Assembly: GCF_046105845.1 (NCBI RefSeq) | Contig: NZ_CP151004.1 | Source of the DNA: Escherichia coli | Lineage (GTDB): Bacteria; Pseudomonadota; Gammaproteobacteria; Enterobacterales; Enterobacteriaceae | Reading direction: 5' to 3' (one strand) | DNA length: 64,000 nucleotides | Part shown: positions 1 to 57,080 of the stretch, in pieces | How positions within the stretch are numbered: position 1 is the first letter of the stretch | Layout of the letters: each line of letters starts with the position of its first letter | Program-made: the position numbers and the translations under genes | Notes under the pieces: generated by a model | What the model saw: the letters and a program-made list of their open reading frames with translations, nothing else | Database searches by the model: none | What the model was told of the DNA's origin: nothing

Positions 1-1201
1 ATAACCATAAGCCATAAATGCAGGCACCGACACCTACCGCTTTATGCAGTGGACGGGTTGCGATTTTCAGCAAGAACGCGCCGACCAGGAAATAGGGCAC
101 CAGAATCATTTCTGAGGCGATGGTCAGCAACGTGTTGTAATCGGAACCGGTCAGCCAGATGAGTACCAGACAAATTTGCACGCAGATGTTGGTCAACCAC
201 AGTGAGGCGGATGGCGCAGCTTGTGCGTTCTGGCGCGCAAAAATGCGTGGGAATGCTTTATGAGTGGCAGCCAGGAACGGAACTTCTGCCGCCATGATGG
301 TCCAGCTTAAGTACGCGCCGCAAACGGAAACGATCAAACCGGCAGCGATGATGATTTCGCCCCACGGTCCCATCATTTCCACCATCAGACCGGCCATTGA
401 CGGGTTACGAATTTCAGCCAGTTCAGGACGTGCCACCACGCCCAGCGAAAGCAGCGTTACCAGCAAGTAAACGCCCAGAGCGGAGAGAACCGCCAGCAGT
501 GTCGCTTTGCCAACATCACGTTTATTACGCGCACGCGCAGAAACAACCACGGCACCTTCCACACCAATGAAAACCCACAGGGTGATCAGCATGGTGTTTT
601 TCACCTGTTCCCAAACGGGTACGCCAAGTGCAAGTCCGGTGAAGTCGAGCTTGAAGGTATCCAGTTTGAACATCATCATCGCCAGCACAACAAACAGACC
701 CAGCGGCAACAATTTTGCCAGTGTCGCCACCAGGTTAATGCTGGCAGCGGTTTGCACTCCGCGCAGGATCAAAAAGTGAACAATCCACAATAAAGCCGAT
801 GCACCGAGGATCGATTGCCAGGTATTACCATCGCCAAACAGGCGCAATTCCGGCGTGTCCGTAAAAAAGCTTAACGCGGAAAAAACGATCACCAGATAGG
901 AGACGTTGGCGATGACCGCGCACAGCCAGTATCCCCATGCGGAACAAAAGCCGATTAGCTCGCCAAACCCTTCGCGGGCATAGGTAAAGATACCGCCGTC
1001 AAGTTCGGGACGAATGCGCGTGAGGATCAGCATGGCAAAGGCCAGCAATAAAATGCCAGCACCAGTAATACCCCAGCCGATGAGCAGTGCTGCCGGGCTG
1101 GCAACTGCCGCCATATTTTGCGGCAGACTGAAAACACCCGCGCCCAGCATTGAGCTTAATACCAGCGCGGTGAGTGCGCTCAGTCCCAGTTTCTTTTCCA
1201 T
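1..1201 (-). CDS. ydgI: APC-family amino acid antiporter-like membrane protein (arginine:ornithine antiporter homolog); 5' part only, 3' end runs off the window start
   Basis: Minus-strand ATG at 1199-1201 gives MEKKLGLSALTALVLSSMLGAGVF..., open to position 1; hydrophobic polytopic protein; lies next to ydgH as in E. coli. Not in ORF track because no stop codon falls inside the window. Confidence 0.85.
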   Translation of the reverse strand, partial: MEKKLGLSALTALVLSSMLGAGVFSLPQNMAAVASPAALLIGWGITGAGILLLAFAMLILTRIRPELDGGIFTYAREGFGELIGFCSAWGYWLCAVIANVSYLVIVFSALSFFTDTPELRLFGDGNTWQSILGASALLWIVHFLILRGVQTAASINLVATLAKLLPLGLFVVLAMMMFKLDTFKLDFTGLALGVPVWEQVKNTMLITLWVFIGVEGAVVVSARARNKRDVGKATLLAVLSALGVYLLVTLLSLGVVARPELAEIRNPSMAGLMVEMMGPWGEIIIAAGLIVSVCGAYLSWTIMAAEVPFLAATHKAFPRIFARQNAQAAPSASLWLTNICVQICLVLIWLTGSDYNTLLTIASEMILVPYFLVGAFLLKIATRPLHKAVGVGACIYGLWL

Positions 1202-1336
1202 CGATATCCAGTGATTAAAACGTGATAAGAAGAATAAATATTAGGGCAAAACGCATAAAAATGGAGTTTGCCACTGAAGCGCGGGATTTTACGAAGAGAT
1301 GTGTCTGCATGCAATGGTCGCGGGGAAATTTGTGAC

Positions 1337-1368
1337 TAAAAATGCGAAAGGCGGCATCAAGCCGCCTT
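1337..1368 (-). terminator. Intrinsic terminator downstream of ydgH
   Basis: Minus-strand RNA forms an 8-bp GC-rich stem (AAGGCGGC / GCCGCCTT, loop 5 nt) followed by a U-run (plus-strand AAAAA at 1338-1342), 19 nt past the ydgH stop. Confidence 0.65.
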
Positions 1369-1386
1369 ATAGGAGTAACTGAATAG

Positions 1387-2331
1387 TTATTTATACAGAT
1401 CTGCGCTGACGGTCAGGTTATTACCACGTTCCTGCCACTGGCGGGTGATGTGGTAATACTTAGCACCTTTCTTCGCGGCACGTTTCGCAACCTGATAGGA
1501 GACTTCAGTCATGTTGCCGTAGTTGCCAGAGAATTTGATGCTGTCGAACGGGACCATCATCGCTGCGGTCGCTTTGTTCAGTTCTTCGACTTTAGTGCCG
1601 TCAGGAAGCGTGACAGTGTAACGCCCGCCTTTTGATGACTGGGTTTCAAAGAAGCGACCGACTTCAGAGCTTGGTGATGCGGTAGTCGCAACACCCGGGA
1701 TCTCAACTTTCTTCGCGGCTTCGCCACCGGCAGCCAGAGCTGCACGTCCTGCTTCGGAATCTGCCGGGATCACATCCGGGCTCTGGACGATACGTTTCTT
1801 AGCATCTTTTTTATAGATGAATGCAGTAATACGCTGGTTGCCGCCCTGGTTGGCATCGATTTGACGAACGATGTAGAAAGAGTAGGCACCTTTCGCTTTT
1901 GCCGCTTTGGTGATGGCATCATTGACTTCTGGCTGGCTACGATAGAAGCCCTGGACGGTGACCGTGTCAAACGGTTCAATCAGAACAGCCTGATCTTTCG
2001 GCAGTTCGACAACACCGTTAATTACGCGATTACTTGTTTCTTCTGCTTTTTCAGCATCGGCTTTATAGAGGTCAGCGACCACACGCCAGTTACCGCTGTT
2101 ACCAAAATCAGAAGTGTCGACAACATAAAAAGAGGCGGCACCTTCTTTATCTGCGCGACGAGAAACGGCTTTCACCGCTTCGCCAATAGCATTAAAACGA
2201 CCGGTAACCACTACACGGTCAAAAGGTTTAACCGCTGCCGCTTGCTCCGGTGTCAGTTCTGTTGCTGCGTTAACGGAGAATGCCGTAGCAGAAAGCAGTG
2301 CCGACGCCAGGAGGGTGTTCTTAAGCTTCAT
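1387..2331 (-). CDS. ydgH: Periplasmic DUF1471-repeat protein YdgH
   Basis: 314-aa ORF with signal peptide MKLKNTLLASALLSATAFSVNA and three internally repeated ~60-aa modules; length and sequence match YdgH as recalled. Confidence 0.9.
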   Translation of the reverse strand: MKLKNTLLASALLSATAFSVNAATELTPEQAAAVKPFDRVVVTGRFNAIGEAVKAVSRRADKEGAASFYVVDTSDFGNSGNWRVVADLYKADAEKAEETSNRVINGVVELPKDQAVLIEPFDTVTVQGFYRSQPEVNDAITKAAKAKGAYSFYIVRQIDANQGGNQRITAFIYKKDAKKRIVQSPDVIPADSEAGRAALAAGGEAAKKVEIPGVATTASPSSEVGRFFETQSSKGGRYTVTLPDGTKVEELNKATAAMMVPFDSIKFSGNYGNMTEVSYQVAKRAAKKGAKYYHITRQWQERGNNLTVSADLYK

Positions 2332-2791
2332 AAAAATAATCCTTCGCCTTGCGCAAACCAGGTACTGGTATTGTTATTAACGAGAAACGTGGCTGATTAT
2401 TGCATTTAAACGGTGTAACTGTCTGCGTCATTTTTCATATCACATTCCTTAAGCCAATTTAAATCCTGCTCAAATGACCGTCTATGCTTAAAAAACAGCC
2501 GTATCAGCATCAATACTACTGAAGCAACTGAATTGTATAAGTTAATTTAATGTTAAGTAGTGATTCGTGCCGGGGCGATATCACGTTTTACCCGACCGTC
2601 GAAGACAATTATCAGTCTTTATCCGGCGTTCTAAGGTGTTTATCCCACTATCACGGCTGAATCGTTAATATTTTGCGAGTTCACGCCGAAATACTGATTT
2701 TTGGCGCTAGATCACAGGCATAATTTTCAGTACGTTATAGGGCGTTTGTTACTAATTTATTTTAACGGAGTAACATTTAGCTCGTACATGA

Positions 2792-4387
<1,596 letters not shown>

Positions 4388-22789: not shown

Positions 22790-22803
22790 TTAATCCATAT
22801 CAA
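22790..22803. promoter_or_regulatory. FNR-like site upstream of ynfE
   Basis: TTAATccatATCAA (one mismatch to TTGAT-N4-ATCAA) about 100 bp upstream of the ynfE start; ynfEFGH is anaerobically induced per literature recall. Confidence 0.3.
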
Positions 22804-27920: not shown

Positions 27921-29288
27921 ATGACAATAGAAAAACACGAAAGAAGCACTAAGGATTTGGTGAAAGCAGCAGTATCGGGATGGCTGGGCACTGCGCTTGA
28001 ATTTATGGATTTCCAGTTATATTCGCTCGGCGCAGCGTTAGTGTTTCATGAAATATTTTTTCCTGAATCATCAACGGCAATGGCGTTAATTCTGGCAATG
28101 GGAACCTACGGTGCAGGTTATGTGGCGCGTATTGTCGGAGCATTTATTTTCGGCAAAATGGGCGACAGAATCGGGCGTAAAAAAGTGCTCTTTATTACCA
28201 TCACTATGATGGGGATCTGTACCACCTTAATTGGTGTGCTGCCGACCTATGCACAAATTGGTGTGTTTGCGCCAATTTTGCTGGTGACGCTGCGTATTAT
28301 TCAGGGGCTGGGGGCAGGCGCGGAAATTTCCGGTGCCGGCACGATGCTGGCGGAATATGCACCAAAAGGTAAGCGCGGAATTATCTCCTCATTTGTGGCT
28401 ATGGGAACTAACTGCGGAACCTTAAGCGCAACGGCAATCTGGGCCTTTATGTTCTTCATTCTCAGTAAAGAAGAACTGCTGGCGTGGGGATGGCGTATAC
28501 CGTTCCTGGCGAGCGTTGTCGTGATGGTCTTTGCTATCTGGTTGCGTATGAATCTGAAAGAAAGCCCGGTCTTTGAGAAGGTTAACGACAGCAACCAACC
28601 GACAGCAAAACCTGCACCTGCTGGTAGCATGTTCCAGAGCAAATCCTTCTGGCTGGCAACAGGGCTGCGTTTTGGTCAGGCTGGTAACTCCGGTTTAATT
28701 CAGACTTTCCTTGCAGGCTATTTAGTACAGACGTTATTGTTTAACAAAGCAATTCCAACAGATGCATTGATGATCAGTTCGATTCTCGGCTTTATGACCA
28801 TTCCGTTCCTTGGTTGGTTATCCGATAAAATTGGTCGCCGGATCCCGTATATTATTATGAATACCTCCGCGATTGTGCTGGCATGGCCAATGCTTTCTAT
28901 CATCGTAGATAAAAGCTATGCCCCGAGCACCATTATGGTTGCACTGATTGTGATTCATAACTGTGCGGTGCTGGGATTATTTGCTCTGGAAAACATTACC
29001 ATGGCAGAAATGTTCGGCTGTAAAAACCGCTTTACCCGGATGGCTATTTCTAAAGAAATTGGTGGTCTTATCGCTTCCGGTTTTGGTCCTATTCTGGCGG
29101 GTATTTTCTGCACCATGACGGAATCCTGGTATCCGATCGCCATTATGATCATGGCATATTCAGTGATTGGTTTAATCTCTGCGCTGAAAATGCCAGAAGT
29201 GAAAGACCGTGATTTAAGTGCGCTGGAAGACGCTGCGGAAGATCAACCGCGTGTTGTCAGAGCTGCGCAACCTTCCAGAAGTCTTTAA
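27921..29288 (+). CDS. ydfJ: MFS metabolite:H+ symporter-family transporter (full length)
   Basis: Uninterrupted 455-aa 12-TM ORF directly downstream of rspB; in K-12 (from memory) this gene is split by the Qin prophage. Confidence 0.88.
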   Translation: MTIEKHERSTKDLVKAAVSGWLGTALEFMDFQLYSLGAALVFHEIFFPESSTAMALILAMGTYGAGYVARIVGAFIFGKMGDRIGRKKVLFITITMMGICTTLIGVLPTYAQIGVFAPILLVTLRIIQGLGAGAEISGAGTMLAEYAPKGKRGIISSFVAMGTNCGTLSATAIWAFMFFILSKEELLAWGWRIPFLASVVVMVFAIWLRMNLKESPVFEKVNDSNQPTAKPAPAGSMFQSKSFWLATGLRFGQAGNSGLIQTFLAGYLVQTLLFNKAIPTDALMISSILGFMTIPFLGWLSDKIGRRIPYIIMNTSAIVLAWPMLSIIVDKSYAPSTIMVALIVIHNCAVLGLFALENITMAEMFGCKNRFTRMAISKEIGGLIASGFGPILAGIFCTMTESWYPIAIMIMAYSVIGLISALKMPEVKDRDLSALEDAAEDQPRVVRAAQPSRSL

Positions 29289-29376: not shown

Positions 29377-30837
29377 ATGGGAAATAATTTGTTATCAGCA
29401 AAAGCGACACTCCCTGTTTATGATCGTAATAACCTGGCCCCAAGAATTGTTCATTTAGGCTTTGGTGCATTTCACCGTGCGCATCAGGGCGTGTATGCCG
29501 ATATTCTTGCTACGGAACATTTCAGTGAATGGGGATATTATGAGGTCAACTTAATCGGCGGCGAACAGCAAATTGCCGATTTACAACAGCAAGATAATCT
29601 TTATACCGTTGCGGAAATGTCGGCCGATGCGTGGACGGCTCGCGTCGTTGGCGTCGTTAAAAAAGCCTTGCACGTACAGATTGATGGCTTAGAAACCGTG
29701 TTGGCTGCGATGTGTGAACCGCAAATCGCGATTGTCTCTCTGACAATCACCGAAAAAGGGTATTTCCACTCTCCGGCGACCGGACAGTTAATGCTCGATC
29801 ACCCGATGGTCGTTGCCGACGTACAAAATCCCCACCAGCCGAAAACTGCAACAGGGGTGATTGTCGAGGCGCTGGCTCGCCGTAAAGCGGCAGGACTTCC
29901 CGCATTTACCGTCATGTCATGTGACAACATGCCAGAAAACGGTCATGTTATGCGTGACGTTGTCACTTCCTACGCGCAAGCCGTTGATGTAAAACTGGCA
30001 CAATGGATCGAAGATAACGTGACTTTCCCATCAACAATGGTAGACCGTATTGTGCCCGCAGTGACAGAGGATACGCTGGCGAAAATCGAACAACTTACCG
30101 GTGTGCGCGATCCTGCTGGCGTTGCCTGTGAACCTTTCCGCCAGTGGGTAATAGAAGATAATTTTGTTGCCGGACGTCCGGAATGGGAAAAAGCGGGAGC
30201 CGAACTGGTTAGTGATGTGCTGCCTTATGAAGAGATGAAGTTGCGCATGCTCAACGGCAGTCATTCATTCCTGGCGTATCTGGGTTATCTTGCTGGATAT
30301 CAGCACATTAATGACTGTATGGAAGATGAACATTATCGTCATGCGGCATATGCCTTGATGTTGCAGGAACAAGCGCCGACGCTGAAAGTGCAGGGTGTTG
30401 ATTTGCAAGATTACGCTAACCGATTAATTGAACGCTATAGCAACCCGGCGCTACGTCATCGAACCTGGCAGATTGCGATGGATGGCAGCCAGAAATTGCC
30501 ACAGCGGATGTTGGATTCTGTTCGCTGGCATCTGGCGCATGACAGCAAGTTCGATCTGCTGGCGCTGGGCGTCGCAGGTTGGATGCGTTATGTCGGTGGT
30601 GTTGATGAACAGGGAAATCCGATAGAAATCAGTGACCCACTGTTACCTGTTATTCAGAAGGCTGTACAAAGTAGTGCCGAAGGGAAAGCGCGCGTCCAGT
30701 CATTGCTGGCGATTAAGGCGATCTTTGGTGATGATTTGCCAGACAATAGCTTGTTTACTGCAAAAGTGACGGAAGCGTACTTGTCTTTATTAGCGCATGG
30801 TGCGAAAGCGACCGTGGCGAAATATTCCGTGAAGTAA
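29377..30837 (+). CDS. ydfI: Mannitol dehydrogenase-family oxidoreductase
   Basis: 486-aa ORF with N-terminal NAD-binding region ([15 protein letters not shown]); long-chain mannitol dehydrogenase family. Confidence 0.9.
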
Positions 30838-30865
30838 AAAAAGCAATGCCGCCATCGGCGGCATT
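30835..30865 (-). terminator. Intrinsic terminator downstream of ydfZ
   Basis: Stem AATGCCGCC-atc-GGCGGCATT located 8 nt past the ydfZ stop; on the minus strand it is followed by a U-run (plus-strand AAAAAAA at 30836-30842). Confidence 0.65.
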
Positions 30866-30872
30866 CACACGC

Positions 30873-31076
30873 TTAGTTCATGCCGAGACGAATCAGGTCC
30901 AGAGGTGCCAGTTTCTCTTCACAACCTTCAACAACTACGGTTTTTCCGCGGCGGATTTGCTCAGCGGTCAGACCTTCAGTATCAATCGACAGGATCTTGC
31001 CAGTGTGACCGGTGCCGCTAACCATAACACGGCTGCCAGTGGTGATTGCGTTACGGTTACGATCGTAGGTCGTCAT
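30873..31076 (-). CDS. ydfZ: Small DUF1471-related protein YdfZ
   Basis: 67-aa [70 protein letters not shown]; matches YdfZ as recalled. Confidence 0.85.
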
Positions 31077-31157
31077 AGGTGTTTTCTCCTTTCTGATTTA
31101 CAGTCGAAGCCCACGTAACGGGCGCAATATAAATACTCCTGTCGAGTGAAATATTTT

Positions 31158-31171
31158 TTGTTTTTGATCAA
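31158..31171. promoter_or_regulatory. FNR-like site upstream of ydfZ
   Basis: TTGTTtttgATCAA (one mismatch to the FNR consensus), centred about 88 bp upstream of the ydfZ start; ydfZ is strongly FNR-activated per literature recall. Confidence 0.4.
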
Positions 31172-31252
31172 GCTCACATCTTTTTTGATGCATGCATGAG
31201 CCATAAGGCGGGGGGAAAGACTCTCACCCCGGATGGGATGAGAGGAAATGAA

Positions 31253-31939
31253 TTACTCTTCGCTAAACCAGTCGCTGTTTTCCTGACGGATCTGGCGCAC
31301 GGATTCGCTGATTTCCTGCAAATGTTGCGTCATTGCACGTTCTACCGCATCGCCATCACGTTTTTGCAGGGCAGAGAAAATCTCAAGATGCTGGCGTAAC
31401 AGCATTTCTGGTGGAGAAACGTGGTCGAAACTCATATAGCGCACGCGATCAACGGTCGCTTTCAGGTTCTCAATGGTATCCCACGCCAGTTGACAGTCGG
31501 CAATCTGGGTCAGGAGTTGATGGAAGTTGTCATCAAGTTCAAAAAAATCATCCAGTTGTTTGCGCTCAATGGCAATGCGTTGCTGGTGAAGATTTTGTTC
31601 CAGTTGGTAGCACTGGCTTTCGGTAATCATGCTCGCCGCCCGACGCGCCACCGCGCACTCAATGGCCTGACGGATAAAACTGCCGTTGCGCACCTGGGCC
31701 ATGGAAATTTTGTTGACGTAGCTGCCACGCTGTGGACGAATTTGAATCAGGCCGTTTTCCGCCAGTTTAATAAAGGCTTCACGAACCGGCTGGCGTGACA
31801 CATTGAAACGAACAGAAACTTCTTTTTCCGACAACGGTGTGCCTGGAGCAATCAGGCAATGGACAATGTCGCGACGAAGGATACGATAAATTTGCTGATT
31901 GACAGGCTGTGTGGGATTAAGTTGCGTTTCGACGGTCAT
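31253..31939 (-). CDS. ydfH: GntR/FadR-family transcriptional regulator (RspR)
   Basis: 228-aa protein with N-terminal GntR wHTH and FCD-type C-terminal domain. Confidence 0.9.
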
Positions 31940-42210: not shown

Positions 42211-45349
<3,139 letters not shown>

Positions 45350-45405: not shown

Positions 45406-45624
45406 CTACATAGCGTGTTGATTATAATAGGGCACGCCGAGCGCATCCGACTTATCACTGCCAGTACCCATGTGATTTAAATCAAACGGTGGTTGTTCCT
45501 GCGATGGGGGAACAACCACGACATTGGCACAGGAAGTAACAACCTGCTGCGTGGTTTGTTCCGCAATGCCCTGCGTGGAAAAGAGAATAAACGCAGCTGC
45601 TATTGCGGATAAAAGTGGTTTCAT
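45406..45624 (-). CDS. marB: Multiple antibiotic resistance protein MarB (periplasmic)
   Basis: 72-aa ORF with signal peptide MKPLLSAIAAAFILFSTQGIA; last gene of marRAB. Confidence 0.9.
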   Translation of the reverse strand: MKPLLSAIAAAFILFSTQGIAEQTTQQVVTSCANVVVVPPSQEQPPFDLNHMGTGSDKSDALGVPYYNQHAM

Positions 45625-56920: not shown

Positions 56921-57080
56921 ACTATATTAGTTACAACATCCTATGTGCCTTTATCATTAACGGGTGCCATATGCCACACCTGTAAATGTTGTAAGCTTGT
57001 AGGTAATTTGTAAGTAGTGTCTTGAGAATGTGATCGTAATCACGTTTAATAGGACGACTTTTCCACGCCTGAAGATAACC

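What the first reader, a model, noticed from the sequence alone, without database searches (positions are those of the whole stretch)
31077..31252. FNR-like site upstream of ydfZ
TTGTTtttgATCAA at 31158-31171 has one mismatch to the FNR consensus and sits in the ydfZ-ydfH intergenic region about 88 bp upstream of the ydfZ start. ydfZ is among the most strongly FNR-induced genes according to transcriptome literature I recall.
Basis: partly seen in the sequence, partly recalled or inferred. Interest (0 to 1): 0.3.

Follow-up and report, generated by a model that had tools for sequence, protein, structure and literature searches.

The report
Known FNR activator site of ydfZ
The flagged sequence is the already well-documented binding site through which the oxygen sensor FNR switches on the small E. 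coli gene ydfZ when oxygen is absent, so the finding is correct but ordinary.

Summary
TTGTTtttgATCAA lies at 31158-31171, has one mismatch to the FNR consensus, and its centre is 88.5 bp upstream of the ydfZ ATG (31076, minus strand).

- **Organism:** the window is E. coli, and the promoter is identical to K-12 MG1655 from the site to the ATG.
- **Start site:** a published genome-wide map puts the ydfZ transcription start at window 31123. That places the site at -41.5, the canonical class II activator position.
- **Experimental support:** FNR ChIP-chip, FNR ChIP-seq and sigma70 ChIP. Expression was called FNR-activated by comparison of wild type with a fnr deletion. Anaerobic induction is about 89-fold. 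PydfZ-lacZ is a standard FNR reporter.
- **My own checks:** in a PWM scan the site ranks 2nd of 63,987 positions, and it is the only top hit that is intergenic. The site is near-invariant in 11 species of six enterobacterial genera, while the spacer down to the -10 is not conserved.

It is a published high-affinity CRP site in vitro, and its TGTGA half is conserved in 10 of those 11 species. Whether it acts in vivo is untested.

The parts
31158..31171 (-). FNR binding site (site A). It reads TTGATcaaaAACAA on the ydfZ strand, matches the consensus at 9 of 10 positions, and is centred at -41.5.
   Evidence: Sequence. PWM rank 2 of 63,987. Identical sequence listed as the top FNR site at -41.5 in Myers 2013. 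Near-invariant in 11 species of six genera.
31163..31178 (-). Overlapping CRP-type site. It reads TGTGAgcttgaTCAAA on the ydfZ strand (9 of 10 to the CRP consensus) and is centred at -47.5. It contains the second FNR PWM hit (site B, GTGAGcttgATCAA, 31164-31177).
   Evidence: 1 mismatch to TGTGAN6TCACA. (site B is PWM rank 5). Myers Table S6, score 13.18. Grainger 2007 annotated this register. Footprint-seq preprint PMC12871828: CRP Kd 5.2 nM, centre 1629120. CRP genomic SELEX target. TGTGA conserved in 10 of 11 species.
31181..31186 (-). Conserved A6 tract at -63..-58, just upstream of the activator sites. It is possibly a docking site for the alpha C-terminal domain of RNA polymerase, or a bend-promoting flank of the CRP site.
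   Evidence: An invariant AAAAA block in the 11-species alignment. The function is inferred only.
31130..31135 (-). -10 hexamer TATTTA (-12..-7). It is weak, and there is no recognisable -35.
   Evidence: Its position follows from the mapped TSS. GCGTATTTATA is largely conserved, and the spacing of 21-23 nt from the FNR site is kept. The sigma70 consensus scan finds no stand-alone promoter, as expected for an activator-dependent class II promoter.
31123..31123 (-). ydfZ transcription start site (G).
   Evidence: Kim 2012 supplement: TSS 1627192, 41 reads, 47-nt UTR, upstream sequence ending ...GTATTTATATTGCG. Mapped onto the window through the identity with MG1655.
31077..31122 (-). 5' untranslated region. 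With the start site at 31123 it is 47 nt long. It has a 5'-terminal hairpin GCCCguuacGUGGGC (31109-31123) and a Shine-Dalgarno sequence AAGGAG (31086-31091).
30873..31076 (-). ydfZ coding sequence (67 aa, Pfam PF14001, 'putative selenium delivery protein').
30845..30865 (-). Intrinsic terminator after ydfZ: a 9-bp GC-rich stem followed by a T-run.
31221..31244 (-). Hairpin directly after the rspR (ydfH) stop codon, with a 10-bp stem. It is the probable rspR terminator, with a poor U-tract, and marks the upstream boundary of the ydfZ promoter region.
   Evidence: -22.1 kcal/mol, z = -4.0. A hairpin with different sequence sits at the same place in Citrobacter.

Best explanation
The sequence is the FNR operator of a class II FNR-dependent sigma70 promoter that drives the monocistronic ydfZ gene.

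Mechanism, from established knowledge of FNR: without oxygen, FNR carries a [4Fe-4S] cluster and forms a dimer. The dimer binds TTGATcaaaAACAA, centred 41.5 bp upstream of the transcription start. There it takes the place of the missing -35 element and recruits RNA polymerase through contacts with sigma70 region 4 and the alpha subunits. This allows initiation from a weak -10 (TATTTA) at G31123. Oxygen converts the cluster, the dimer falls apart, and the promoter is almost silent.

Shown by published data or by the sequence here: FNR occupancy, the position relative to the mapped start, the anaerobic rise in sigma70 occupancy, expression called FNR-activated in a wild type versus fnr-deletion comparison, and strong anaerobic induction.

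Inferred: which protein-protein contacts are made, the identity of the -10 hexamer, and a role for the upstream A-tract.
For: - **Sequence and position:**
- **Identity with K-12:** the promoter is identical to MG1655 from the site to the ATG.
- **Start site:** the mapped TSS gives -41.5.
- **Direct activation:** Myers 2013 Table 1 places ydfZ in Category 1 (directly activated), with its top site at -41.5 and sigma70 occupancy and expression both up anaerobically.
- **ChIP numbers:** sigma70 ChIP rises from 63 to 3597, and the FNR peak is found in all data sets.
- **Induction:** the aerobic/anaerobic ratio is 0.0112.
- **Independent binding data:** FNR ChIP-chip and ChIP-qPCR context.
- **Routine use:** class II reporter and gel-shift positive control.
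- **PWM:** rank 2 in the window, and the only intergenic top hit.
- **Within E. coli:** the 81-bp core promoter matches at 99% identity or better in 5294 of 5417 records.
- **Across genera:** the FNR site and its 21-23 nt distance to a -10-like hexamer are conserved in Escherichia, Salmonella, Citrobacter, Enterobacter, Kosakonia and Pseudocitrobacter. An FNR-type site with 1-2 mismatches sits 21-22 nt upstream of a -10-like hexamer in Franconibacter, Shimwellia, strain LSJC7 and Buttiauxella. Cronobacter carries the same site at the same distance from the ATG. The intervening sequence is not conserved.
Against: - I found no site-directed mutation or nucleotide-resolution FNR footprint of this site in the papers I could read.
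- A second PWM hit 6 bp upstream scores almost as well (13.18 against 13.58), and Grainger 2007 annotated that register. ChIP alone therefore cannot say which register is bound.
- The -10 implied by the TSS (TATTTA) lacks the usual T at -7, while a better hexamer (TATATT) lies 4 bp further downstream.
- I did not check the growth conditions of the TSS map.
Confidence: 0.95

Rival explanations
1. FNR acts from the other register (site B, GTGAGcttgATCAA, 31164-31177, centre 31170.5). The reader's site would then be only the neighbouring PWM hit.
For: Grainger 2007 printed this register. Its PatSer score of 13.18 is close to 13.58. It ranks 5th in my PWM scan.
Against: - It sits at -47.5 relative to the mapped TSS, out of phase with class II activation. 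A start 6 bp further upstream would have CAGGAG as its -10.
- As an FNR site it decays in E. albertii, E. whittamii and related strains (GTGAACTTGATCAT, at least 3 mismatches). It is absent in Pseudocitrobacter. Site A stays at 1 mismatch in all of them.
- The conserved geometry (site, then 21-23 nt, then a -10-like hexamer) fits site A only.
Confidence: 0.03
2. The element is a composite FNR/CRP operator. This is an addition to the main explanation rather than a replacement. cAMP-CRP binds TGTGAgcttgaTCAAA at -47.5. The two sites share the TTGATCAA core, so they cannot both be occupied. CRP would therefore compete with FNR and modulate ydfZ expression according to carbon source.
For: - CRP protects this site in vitro with an estimated Kd of 5.2 nM. 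ydfZ is also a CRP genomic-SELEX target.
- The site has 1 mismatch to the CRP consensus.
- The CRP-specific TGTGA, including the T that lies outside the FNR motif, and the FNR-site spacer CAAA (which forms the second CRP half) are conserved in 10 of 11 species.
- Cronobacter, Franconibacter and Shimwellia carry a separate near-perfect CRP site 29 bp upstream of their FNR site.
- Overlapping FNR/CRP sites with proposed competition are known at guaB, ptsH and uxaB. A shared site is known at hlyE.
Against: - I found no in vivo CRP occupancy or CRP-dependent expression data for ydfZ.
- -47.5 is not an activating position.
- Many in vitro CRP sites are not occupied in vivo (Myers' discussion).
- The conserved TGTGA could instead serve FNR or RNA polymerase alpha.
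Confidence: 0.35
3. The match is a chance occurrence of the motif and has no regulatory role.
For: Matches to the consensus with at most 1 mismatch are not enriched in the window (6 against 3.48 expected). A PWM score this high is expected 0.58 times per 64 kb.
Against: ChIP occupancy, expression called FNR-activated in the fnr-deletion comparison, the exact -41.5 spacing, and conservation across genera all argue against it.
Confidence: 0.01

Closest known systems
Class II FNR-activated promoters of E. coli (dmsA, narG, nirB, nrfA, narK, ynjE: site at -41.5)
   Same: An inverted repeat of the TTGATnnnnATCAA type at -41.5. No -35 hexamer and a weak -10. Anaerobic gain of sigma70 occupancy, with expression called FNR-activated. 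ydfZ is listed with these promoters in the same table.
   Different: Nothing essential differs: this is that promoter. ydfZ is a single small gene of unclear function. Its promoter-proximal half-site is AACAA, and that mismatch is itself conserved across genera.
hlyE promoter: one site (TTTGATATTTATCATA, -61.5) used by both FNR and CRP
   Same: A hybrid CRP/FNR-type sequence that both proteins can recognise.
   Different: At hlyE the two proteins share one register at a class I position, and both activate. At ydfZ the two registers are offset by 6 bp (-41.5 and -47.5), so CRP would lie in a non-activating position.
guaB, ptsH and uxaB: an FNR site overlapping a CRP site, with competition proposed (Myers 2013)
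   Same: Overlapping FNR and CRP sites, which implies mutually exclusive binding.
   Different: Those operons showed no FNR-dependent expression in glucose medium. ydfZ is one of the strongest FNR-activated genes, and the FNR paper does not discuss it as a CRP target.
Tandem co-activated promoters such as ansB (FNR at -41.5 plus CRP further upstream; recalled from my own knowledge, not checked here)
   Same: The Cronobacter, Franconibacter and Shimwellia versions of the ydfZ promoter have an FNR site at about -40.5 and a separate CRP site about 29 bp upstream.
   Different: E. coli ydfZ has the overlapping arrangement, not the tandem one. The tandem arrangement is inferred from sequence only.

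Membership tests
FNR class II activated promoter | An inverted repeat matching TTGATnnnnATCAA. | tested here: met
   9 of 10 consensus positions. 14.35 bits on a PWM built from 61 other ChIP-bound sites, rank 2 of 63,987.
FNR class II activated promoter | Site centred near -41.5 relative to an experimentally mapped transcription start. | tested here: met
   The TSS 1627192 (Kim 2012 supplement) maps to window 31123. The site centre is 31164.5, which gives -41.5. Myers 2013 reports the same value.
FNR class II activated promoter | FNR occupies the promoter in vivo. | tested here: met
   From the literature: ChIP-chip, and ChIP-seq and ChIP-chip in all data sets of Myers Table S5.
FNR class II activated promoter | Expression depends on FNR and on anaerobiosis. 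| tested here: met
FNR class II activated promoter | Core promoter too weak to work alone (no -35, poor -10). | tested here: met
   No sigma70 promoter-like match in 30800-31400. The -35 region reads AAAAAT and the -10 reads TATTTA.
FNR class II activated promoter | Purified FNR binds this sequence directly, and mutation of the site abolishes activation. | not testable with these tools
   Binding to a ydfZ promoter fragment is used as a gel-shift positive control. I found no footprint at nucleotide resolution and no site mutant.
cAMP-CRP operator (overlapping site 31163-31178) | Match to TGTGAnnnnnnTCACA. | tested here: met
   9 of 10 positions.
cAMP-CRP operator (overlapping site 31163-31178) | CRP binds the site in vitro. 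| tested here: met
   From the literature: Footprint-seq Kd 5.2 nM and genomic SELEX.
cAMP-CRP operator (overlapping site 31163-31178) | In vivo occupancy and a CRP-dependent change in ydfZ expression. | not tested
   No such data were found among the 41 papers that mention ydfZ. The CRP regulon paper PMC528793 is not held.

The most novel reading that the evidence does not exclude
The ydfZ control region would be a conserved two-input element, not a simple FNR operator. A CRP site and the FNR site interlock with a 6-bp offset around the palindrome TTGATCAA, so cAMP-CRP and FNR exclude each other. Across Enterobacteriaceae the same two inputs would be kept while the architecture was rewired. 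The arrangement is overlapping (-47.5/-41.5) in Escherichia, Salmonella, Citrobacter, Enterobacter and Kosakonia. It is tandem (about -69.5/-40.5) in Cronobacter, Franconibacter and Shimwellia. The two arrangements would give opposite logic: competition in the first and co-activation in the second.
Probability: 0.3. Interest if true: 0.3.

Novelty: already known. Interest (0 to 1): 0.08.

Why it matters
It matters little as a discovery. The FNR site of ydfZ has been in the literature since 2005-2007, and the promoter is a routine reporter of FNR activity. The check has three uses:

- It confirms that the first-stage reader can recognise a real operator from sequence alone.
- It settles which of two published registers fits the mapped start site and the cross-genus conservation.
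- It points out that users of PydfZ as a 'pure' FNR reporter should be aware of an overlapping high-affinity CRP site. That site could make the reporter sensitive to carbon source.

Tried and rejected
- **Site B as the working FNR site.** Rejected on position (-47.5), on its decay in the E. albertii clade and Pseudocitrobacter, and on the conserved spacing to the -10.
- **TATATT (31126-31131) as the -10.** It matches the consensus better, but it would lie at -8..-3 of the mapped start and would put FNR at -45.5. I rejected it in favour of TATTTA. An anaerobic 5' map would settle this.
- **NarL heptamer.** TACTCCT at 31134-31140 (+) matches TACYYMT and overlaps the -10, which would suggest nitrate repression. 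It is present only in E. coli, E. albertii and E. whittamii; E. fergusonii and the other genera have GCGTA there. I found no supporting text, so I treat it as a probable chance match.
- **Stand-alone sigma70 promoter scan.** It found nothing. This is consistent with activator dependence but is not informative by itself.
- **Rfam search of 30800-31300.** No RNA family was found.
- **Inaccessible papers.** Kang 2005 (PMC545700), Mettert 2008 (PMC2648814) and Zheng 2004 (PMC528793) are not held. I therefore could not check in vitro transcription, the design of the reporter fusion, or CRP transcriptome data.
- **Consensus counting as a significance test.** It is not significant on its own.

Full report
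**What is in the sequence.**
- The window is an E. coli chromosome segment. A 461-bp query around the finding matches 5416 of 5426 complete E. coli genomes, with ydfZ and rspR (= ydfH) annotated under it.
- Window coordinates coincide with NZ_CP027437.1 490274 onwards.
- ydfZ is the 67-aa ORF 30873..31076 on the minus strand. rspR ends at 31253 on the same strand.
- TTGTTTTTGATCAA occupies 31158-31171. On the ydfZ strand it reads TTGATcaaaAACAA, with a perfect distal half-site and one mismatch in the proximal half-site.
- Its centre (31164.5) is 88.5 bp upstream of the ATG.
- From the site to the ATG the sequence is identical to K-12 MG1655. The only difference in the intergenic region is at 31215.

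**Is it more than chance?**
- Consensus counting alone says no: 6 matches with at most 1 mismatch against 3.48 expected.
- I built a symmetrised PWM from 61 FNR sites that lie under ChIP-seq peaks (Myers 2013, Table S6), leaving out the ydfZ sites.
- The site scores 14.35 bits and ranks 2nd of 63,987 positions. A first-order Markov model of the window expects 0.58 such hits per 64 kb.
- A second hit 6 bp away (31164-31177, 13.38 bits) ranks 5th.
- The other four of the six best hits (45472, 44097, 22790, 4211) lie inside coding sequences. Only the ydfZ pair is intergenic.

**Published evidence.**
- Myers et al. 2013 (PMC3688515) place ydfZ among operons directly activated by FNR. They report a ChIP-seq peak at 1,627,208 and two predicted motifs, with the top one at -41.5. 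Sigma70 occupancy and expression both increase anaerobically.
- Their Table S6 lists TTGATCAAAAACAA (start 1627144, score 13.58) and GTGAGCTTGATCAA (start 1627138, score 13.18).
- Sigma70 ChIP signal rises from 63 to 3597 (Table S2).
- ydfZ is 'Activated' in the wild type versus fnr-deletion comparison (Table S8).
- Its aerobic/anaerobic ratio is 0.0112, about 89-fold. In the part of Table S12 that I read (b0001-b3005), only five hya genes are more extreme.
- Grainger et al. 2007 (PMC1802558) found the FNR ChIP-chip target.
- The promoter is used as a class II FNR reporter and as a positive control in FNR gel shifts.

**The transcription start.**
- Kim et al. 2012 (PMC3415461, supplement) map the ydfZ start at 1,627,192, with 41 reads and a 47-nt 5'UTR. 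The upstream sequence ends ...GGAGTATTTATATTGCG.
- This is G at window 31123 on the minus strand.
- The hexamer at -12..-7 is TATTTA. The -35 region is AAAAAT. A sigma70 consensus scan finds no stand-alone promoter. This is the expected anatomy of an activator-dependent class II promoter.

**Which register?**
- Grainger et al. printed AAGATGTGAGCTTGATCAAAAACA centred at 1,627,144.5. That is the other register (site B), 6 bp upstream of the site used by Myers et al..
- I compared ydfZ upstream regions from 17 loci found in one-genome-per-species contigs and from 8 further loci fetched through protein homologues.
- In E. coli, E. albertii, E. whittamii, E. fergusonii, three Citrobacter species, Salmonella, Enterobacter hormaechei, Kosakonia and Pseudocitrobacter, the site TTGATC(A/G)(A/T)AA(A/G)CAA is nearly invariant.
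- It sits 21-23 nt upstream of a largely conserved GCGTATNTA block. The sequence between them differs freely.
- Site B as an FNR site decays to three or more mismatches in the E. albertii group and is absent in Pseudocitrobacter.
- More distant homologues carry an FNR-type site with 1-2 mismatches 21-22 nt upstream of a -10-like hexamer (TAAAAT, TAGAAT, CACAAT or TATTTA). These are Franconibacter, Shimwellia, strain LSJC7 and several Buttiauxella. Cronobacter has the same FNR-type site at the same distance from the ATG as Franconibacter.
- Within E. coli, the 81-bp core promoter matches at 99% identity or better in 5294 of 5417 records. For the 461-bp region, 3249 of 5422 records are at least 99% identical.

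- The second motif is better described as a CRP-type site: TGTGAgcttgaTCAAA (31163-31178, 1 mismatch to TGTGAN6TCACA).
- A 2026 preprint (Footprint-seq, PMC12871828) lists ttTTTGAtcaagcTCACAtct, centred at NC_000913.3 position 1,629,120, as a novel CRP site with an estimated Kd of 5.2 nM. That position equals window 31170.5-31171.
- ydfZ was also a new CRP target in genomic SELEX (PMC3105977).
- The CRP-specific TGTGA, an A-tract upstream of it, and the spacer of the FNR site (which forms the second CRP half-site) are conserved in 10 of the 11 species aligned.
- Cronobacter, Franconibacter and Shimwellia instead carry a separate, nearly perfect CRP site about 29 bp upstream of their FNR site.
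- The two E. coli sites share the palindrome TTGATCAA and are offset by 6 bp, so both proteins cannot be bound at once. CRP at -47.5 would not be in an activating position.
- Competition is therefore the simplest prediction. I found no in vivo CRP data for ydfZ, so this remains an inference.
- Overlapping FNR/CRP sites are a known theme, at hlyE and at guaB, ptsH and uxaB.

**Mechanism.**
- Anaerobic [4Fe-4S]-FNR dimer binds at -41.5 and recruits RNA polymerase to a promoter that lacks a -35 element. Oxygen inactivates FNR and the promoter shuts down. This is established knowledge of FNR.
- For ydfZ specifically, three things are shown: occupancy, position and regulation.
- The particular contacts, the identity of the -10, and any role of the A-tract or of CRP are inferred.

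**Verdict.** Interest is low. The only mildly new angle is the interlocked CRP site and its conservation.

Noticed in passing
window 31163-31178: A CRP-type site (TGTGAgcttgaTCAAA on the ydfZ strand) overlaps the FNR site with a 6-bp offset. It has been published as an in vitro CRP site (Kd 5.2 nM). In the papers I read, it is not linked to the FNR site. Its TGTGA half is conserved in 10 of 11 species.
   Followed up: yes
L009, L010, L018, L024 (about 105-109 bp upstream of ydfZ); L012: Franconibacter, Cronobacter and Shimwellia have a separate near-perfect CRP site (for example TGTGATATTCATCACA) about 29 bp upstream of their FNR site. That is a tandem architecture rather than the overlapping one. 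Strain LSJC7 has a hybrid TGTGATCGCGATCAAA at the class II position.
   Followed up: partly
window 31181-31186: An A6 tract at -63..-58 is invariant across the aligned genera. It may be a docking site for the polymerase alpha C-terminal domain or a bending flank for CRP.
   Followed up: no
L020, L023, L022, L021 (5'UTRs of ydfZ orthologues); window 31109-31123: The predicted ydfZ leaders examined begin with a hairpin at or near the 5' end. In Kosakonia (GCGGGGACATCTTCTGCCCCGTTTCGTTTTTT) and Salmonella the hairpin is followed by a T-run and looks like a terminator or attenuator. Citrobacter has a 14-nt insertion that forms a longer stem. No Rfam family matches the E. coli region.
   Followed up: partly
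window 31221-31244: A strong 10-bp hairpin (z = -4.0) sits right after the rspR stop codon, followed by a poor U-tract (UCUUUCCCCCC). It is probably a weak rspR terminator, so some read-through into ydfZ is conceivable. The only difference from K-12 in the intergenic region (G at 31215, A in K-12) lies in this tail.
   Followed up: partly
window 31134-31140: TACTCCT matches the NarL heptamer TACYYMT and overlaps the -10. It is present only in E. coli, E. albertii and E. whittamii, so it is probably a chance match.
   Followed up: partly
window 45471-45486, 44097-44110, 22790-22803: These are strong FNR PWM hits inside coding sequences: a 6-phospho-beta-glucosidase gene, a carbohydrate porin gene and a prophage tail-fibre gene. 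The best one (GTGATTTAAATCAA, 17.65 bits) is also one mismatch from the CRP consensus.
   Followed up: partly
window 57029-57044: TGTGATCGTAATCACG has the same sequence as the high-affinity CRP site that the Footprint-seq preprint reports upstream of yneE (Kd 0.7 nM).
   Followed up: no
window 1-27400 and 28005-29288: The first 27 kb of the window is a lambdoid prophage (terminase, portal, tail and tail-fibre genes) next to cold-shock genes. ydfJ is annotated as a 5'-truncated pseudogene at the prophage boundary.
   Followed up: no
L011: A 265-bp contig with 0.79x coverage, in an assembly labelled Alkalicoccobacillus porphyridii, carries the same FNR and CRP sites at the same distances from the ATG as E. 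coli, and its YdfZ residues 1-49 are 100% identical. It is almost certainly contamination of that assembly.
   Followed up: no
L027 1001-1354; proteins P0001-P0005, P0011: Several database entries give YdfZ an N-terminal extension (84-117 aa instead of 67). These called starts lie inside the promoter and 5'UTR, so they are probably mis-called.
   Followed up: no
window 31253-31939 (rspR): The upstream gene rspR/ydfH is also about 2.4-fold higher anaerobically (ratio 0.414 in Myers Table S12). It has its own mapped start 26 nt upstream of its ATG.
   Followed up: no
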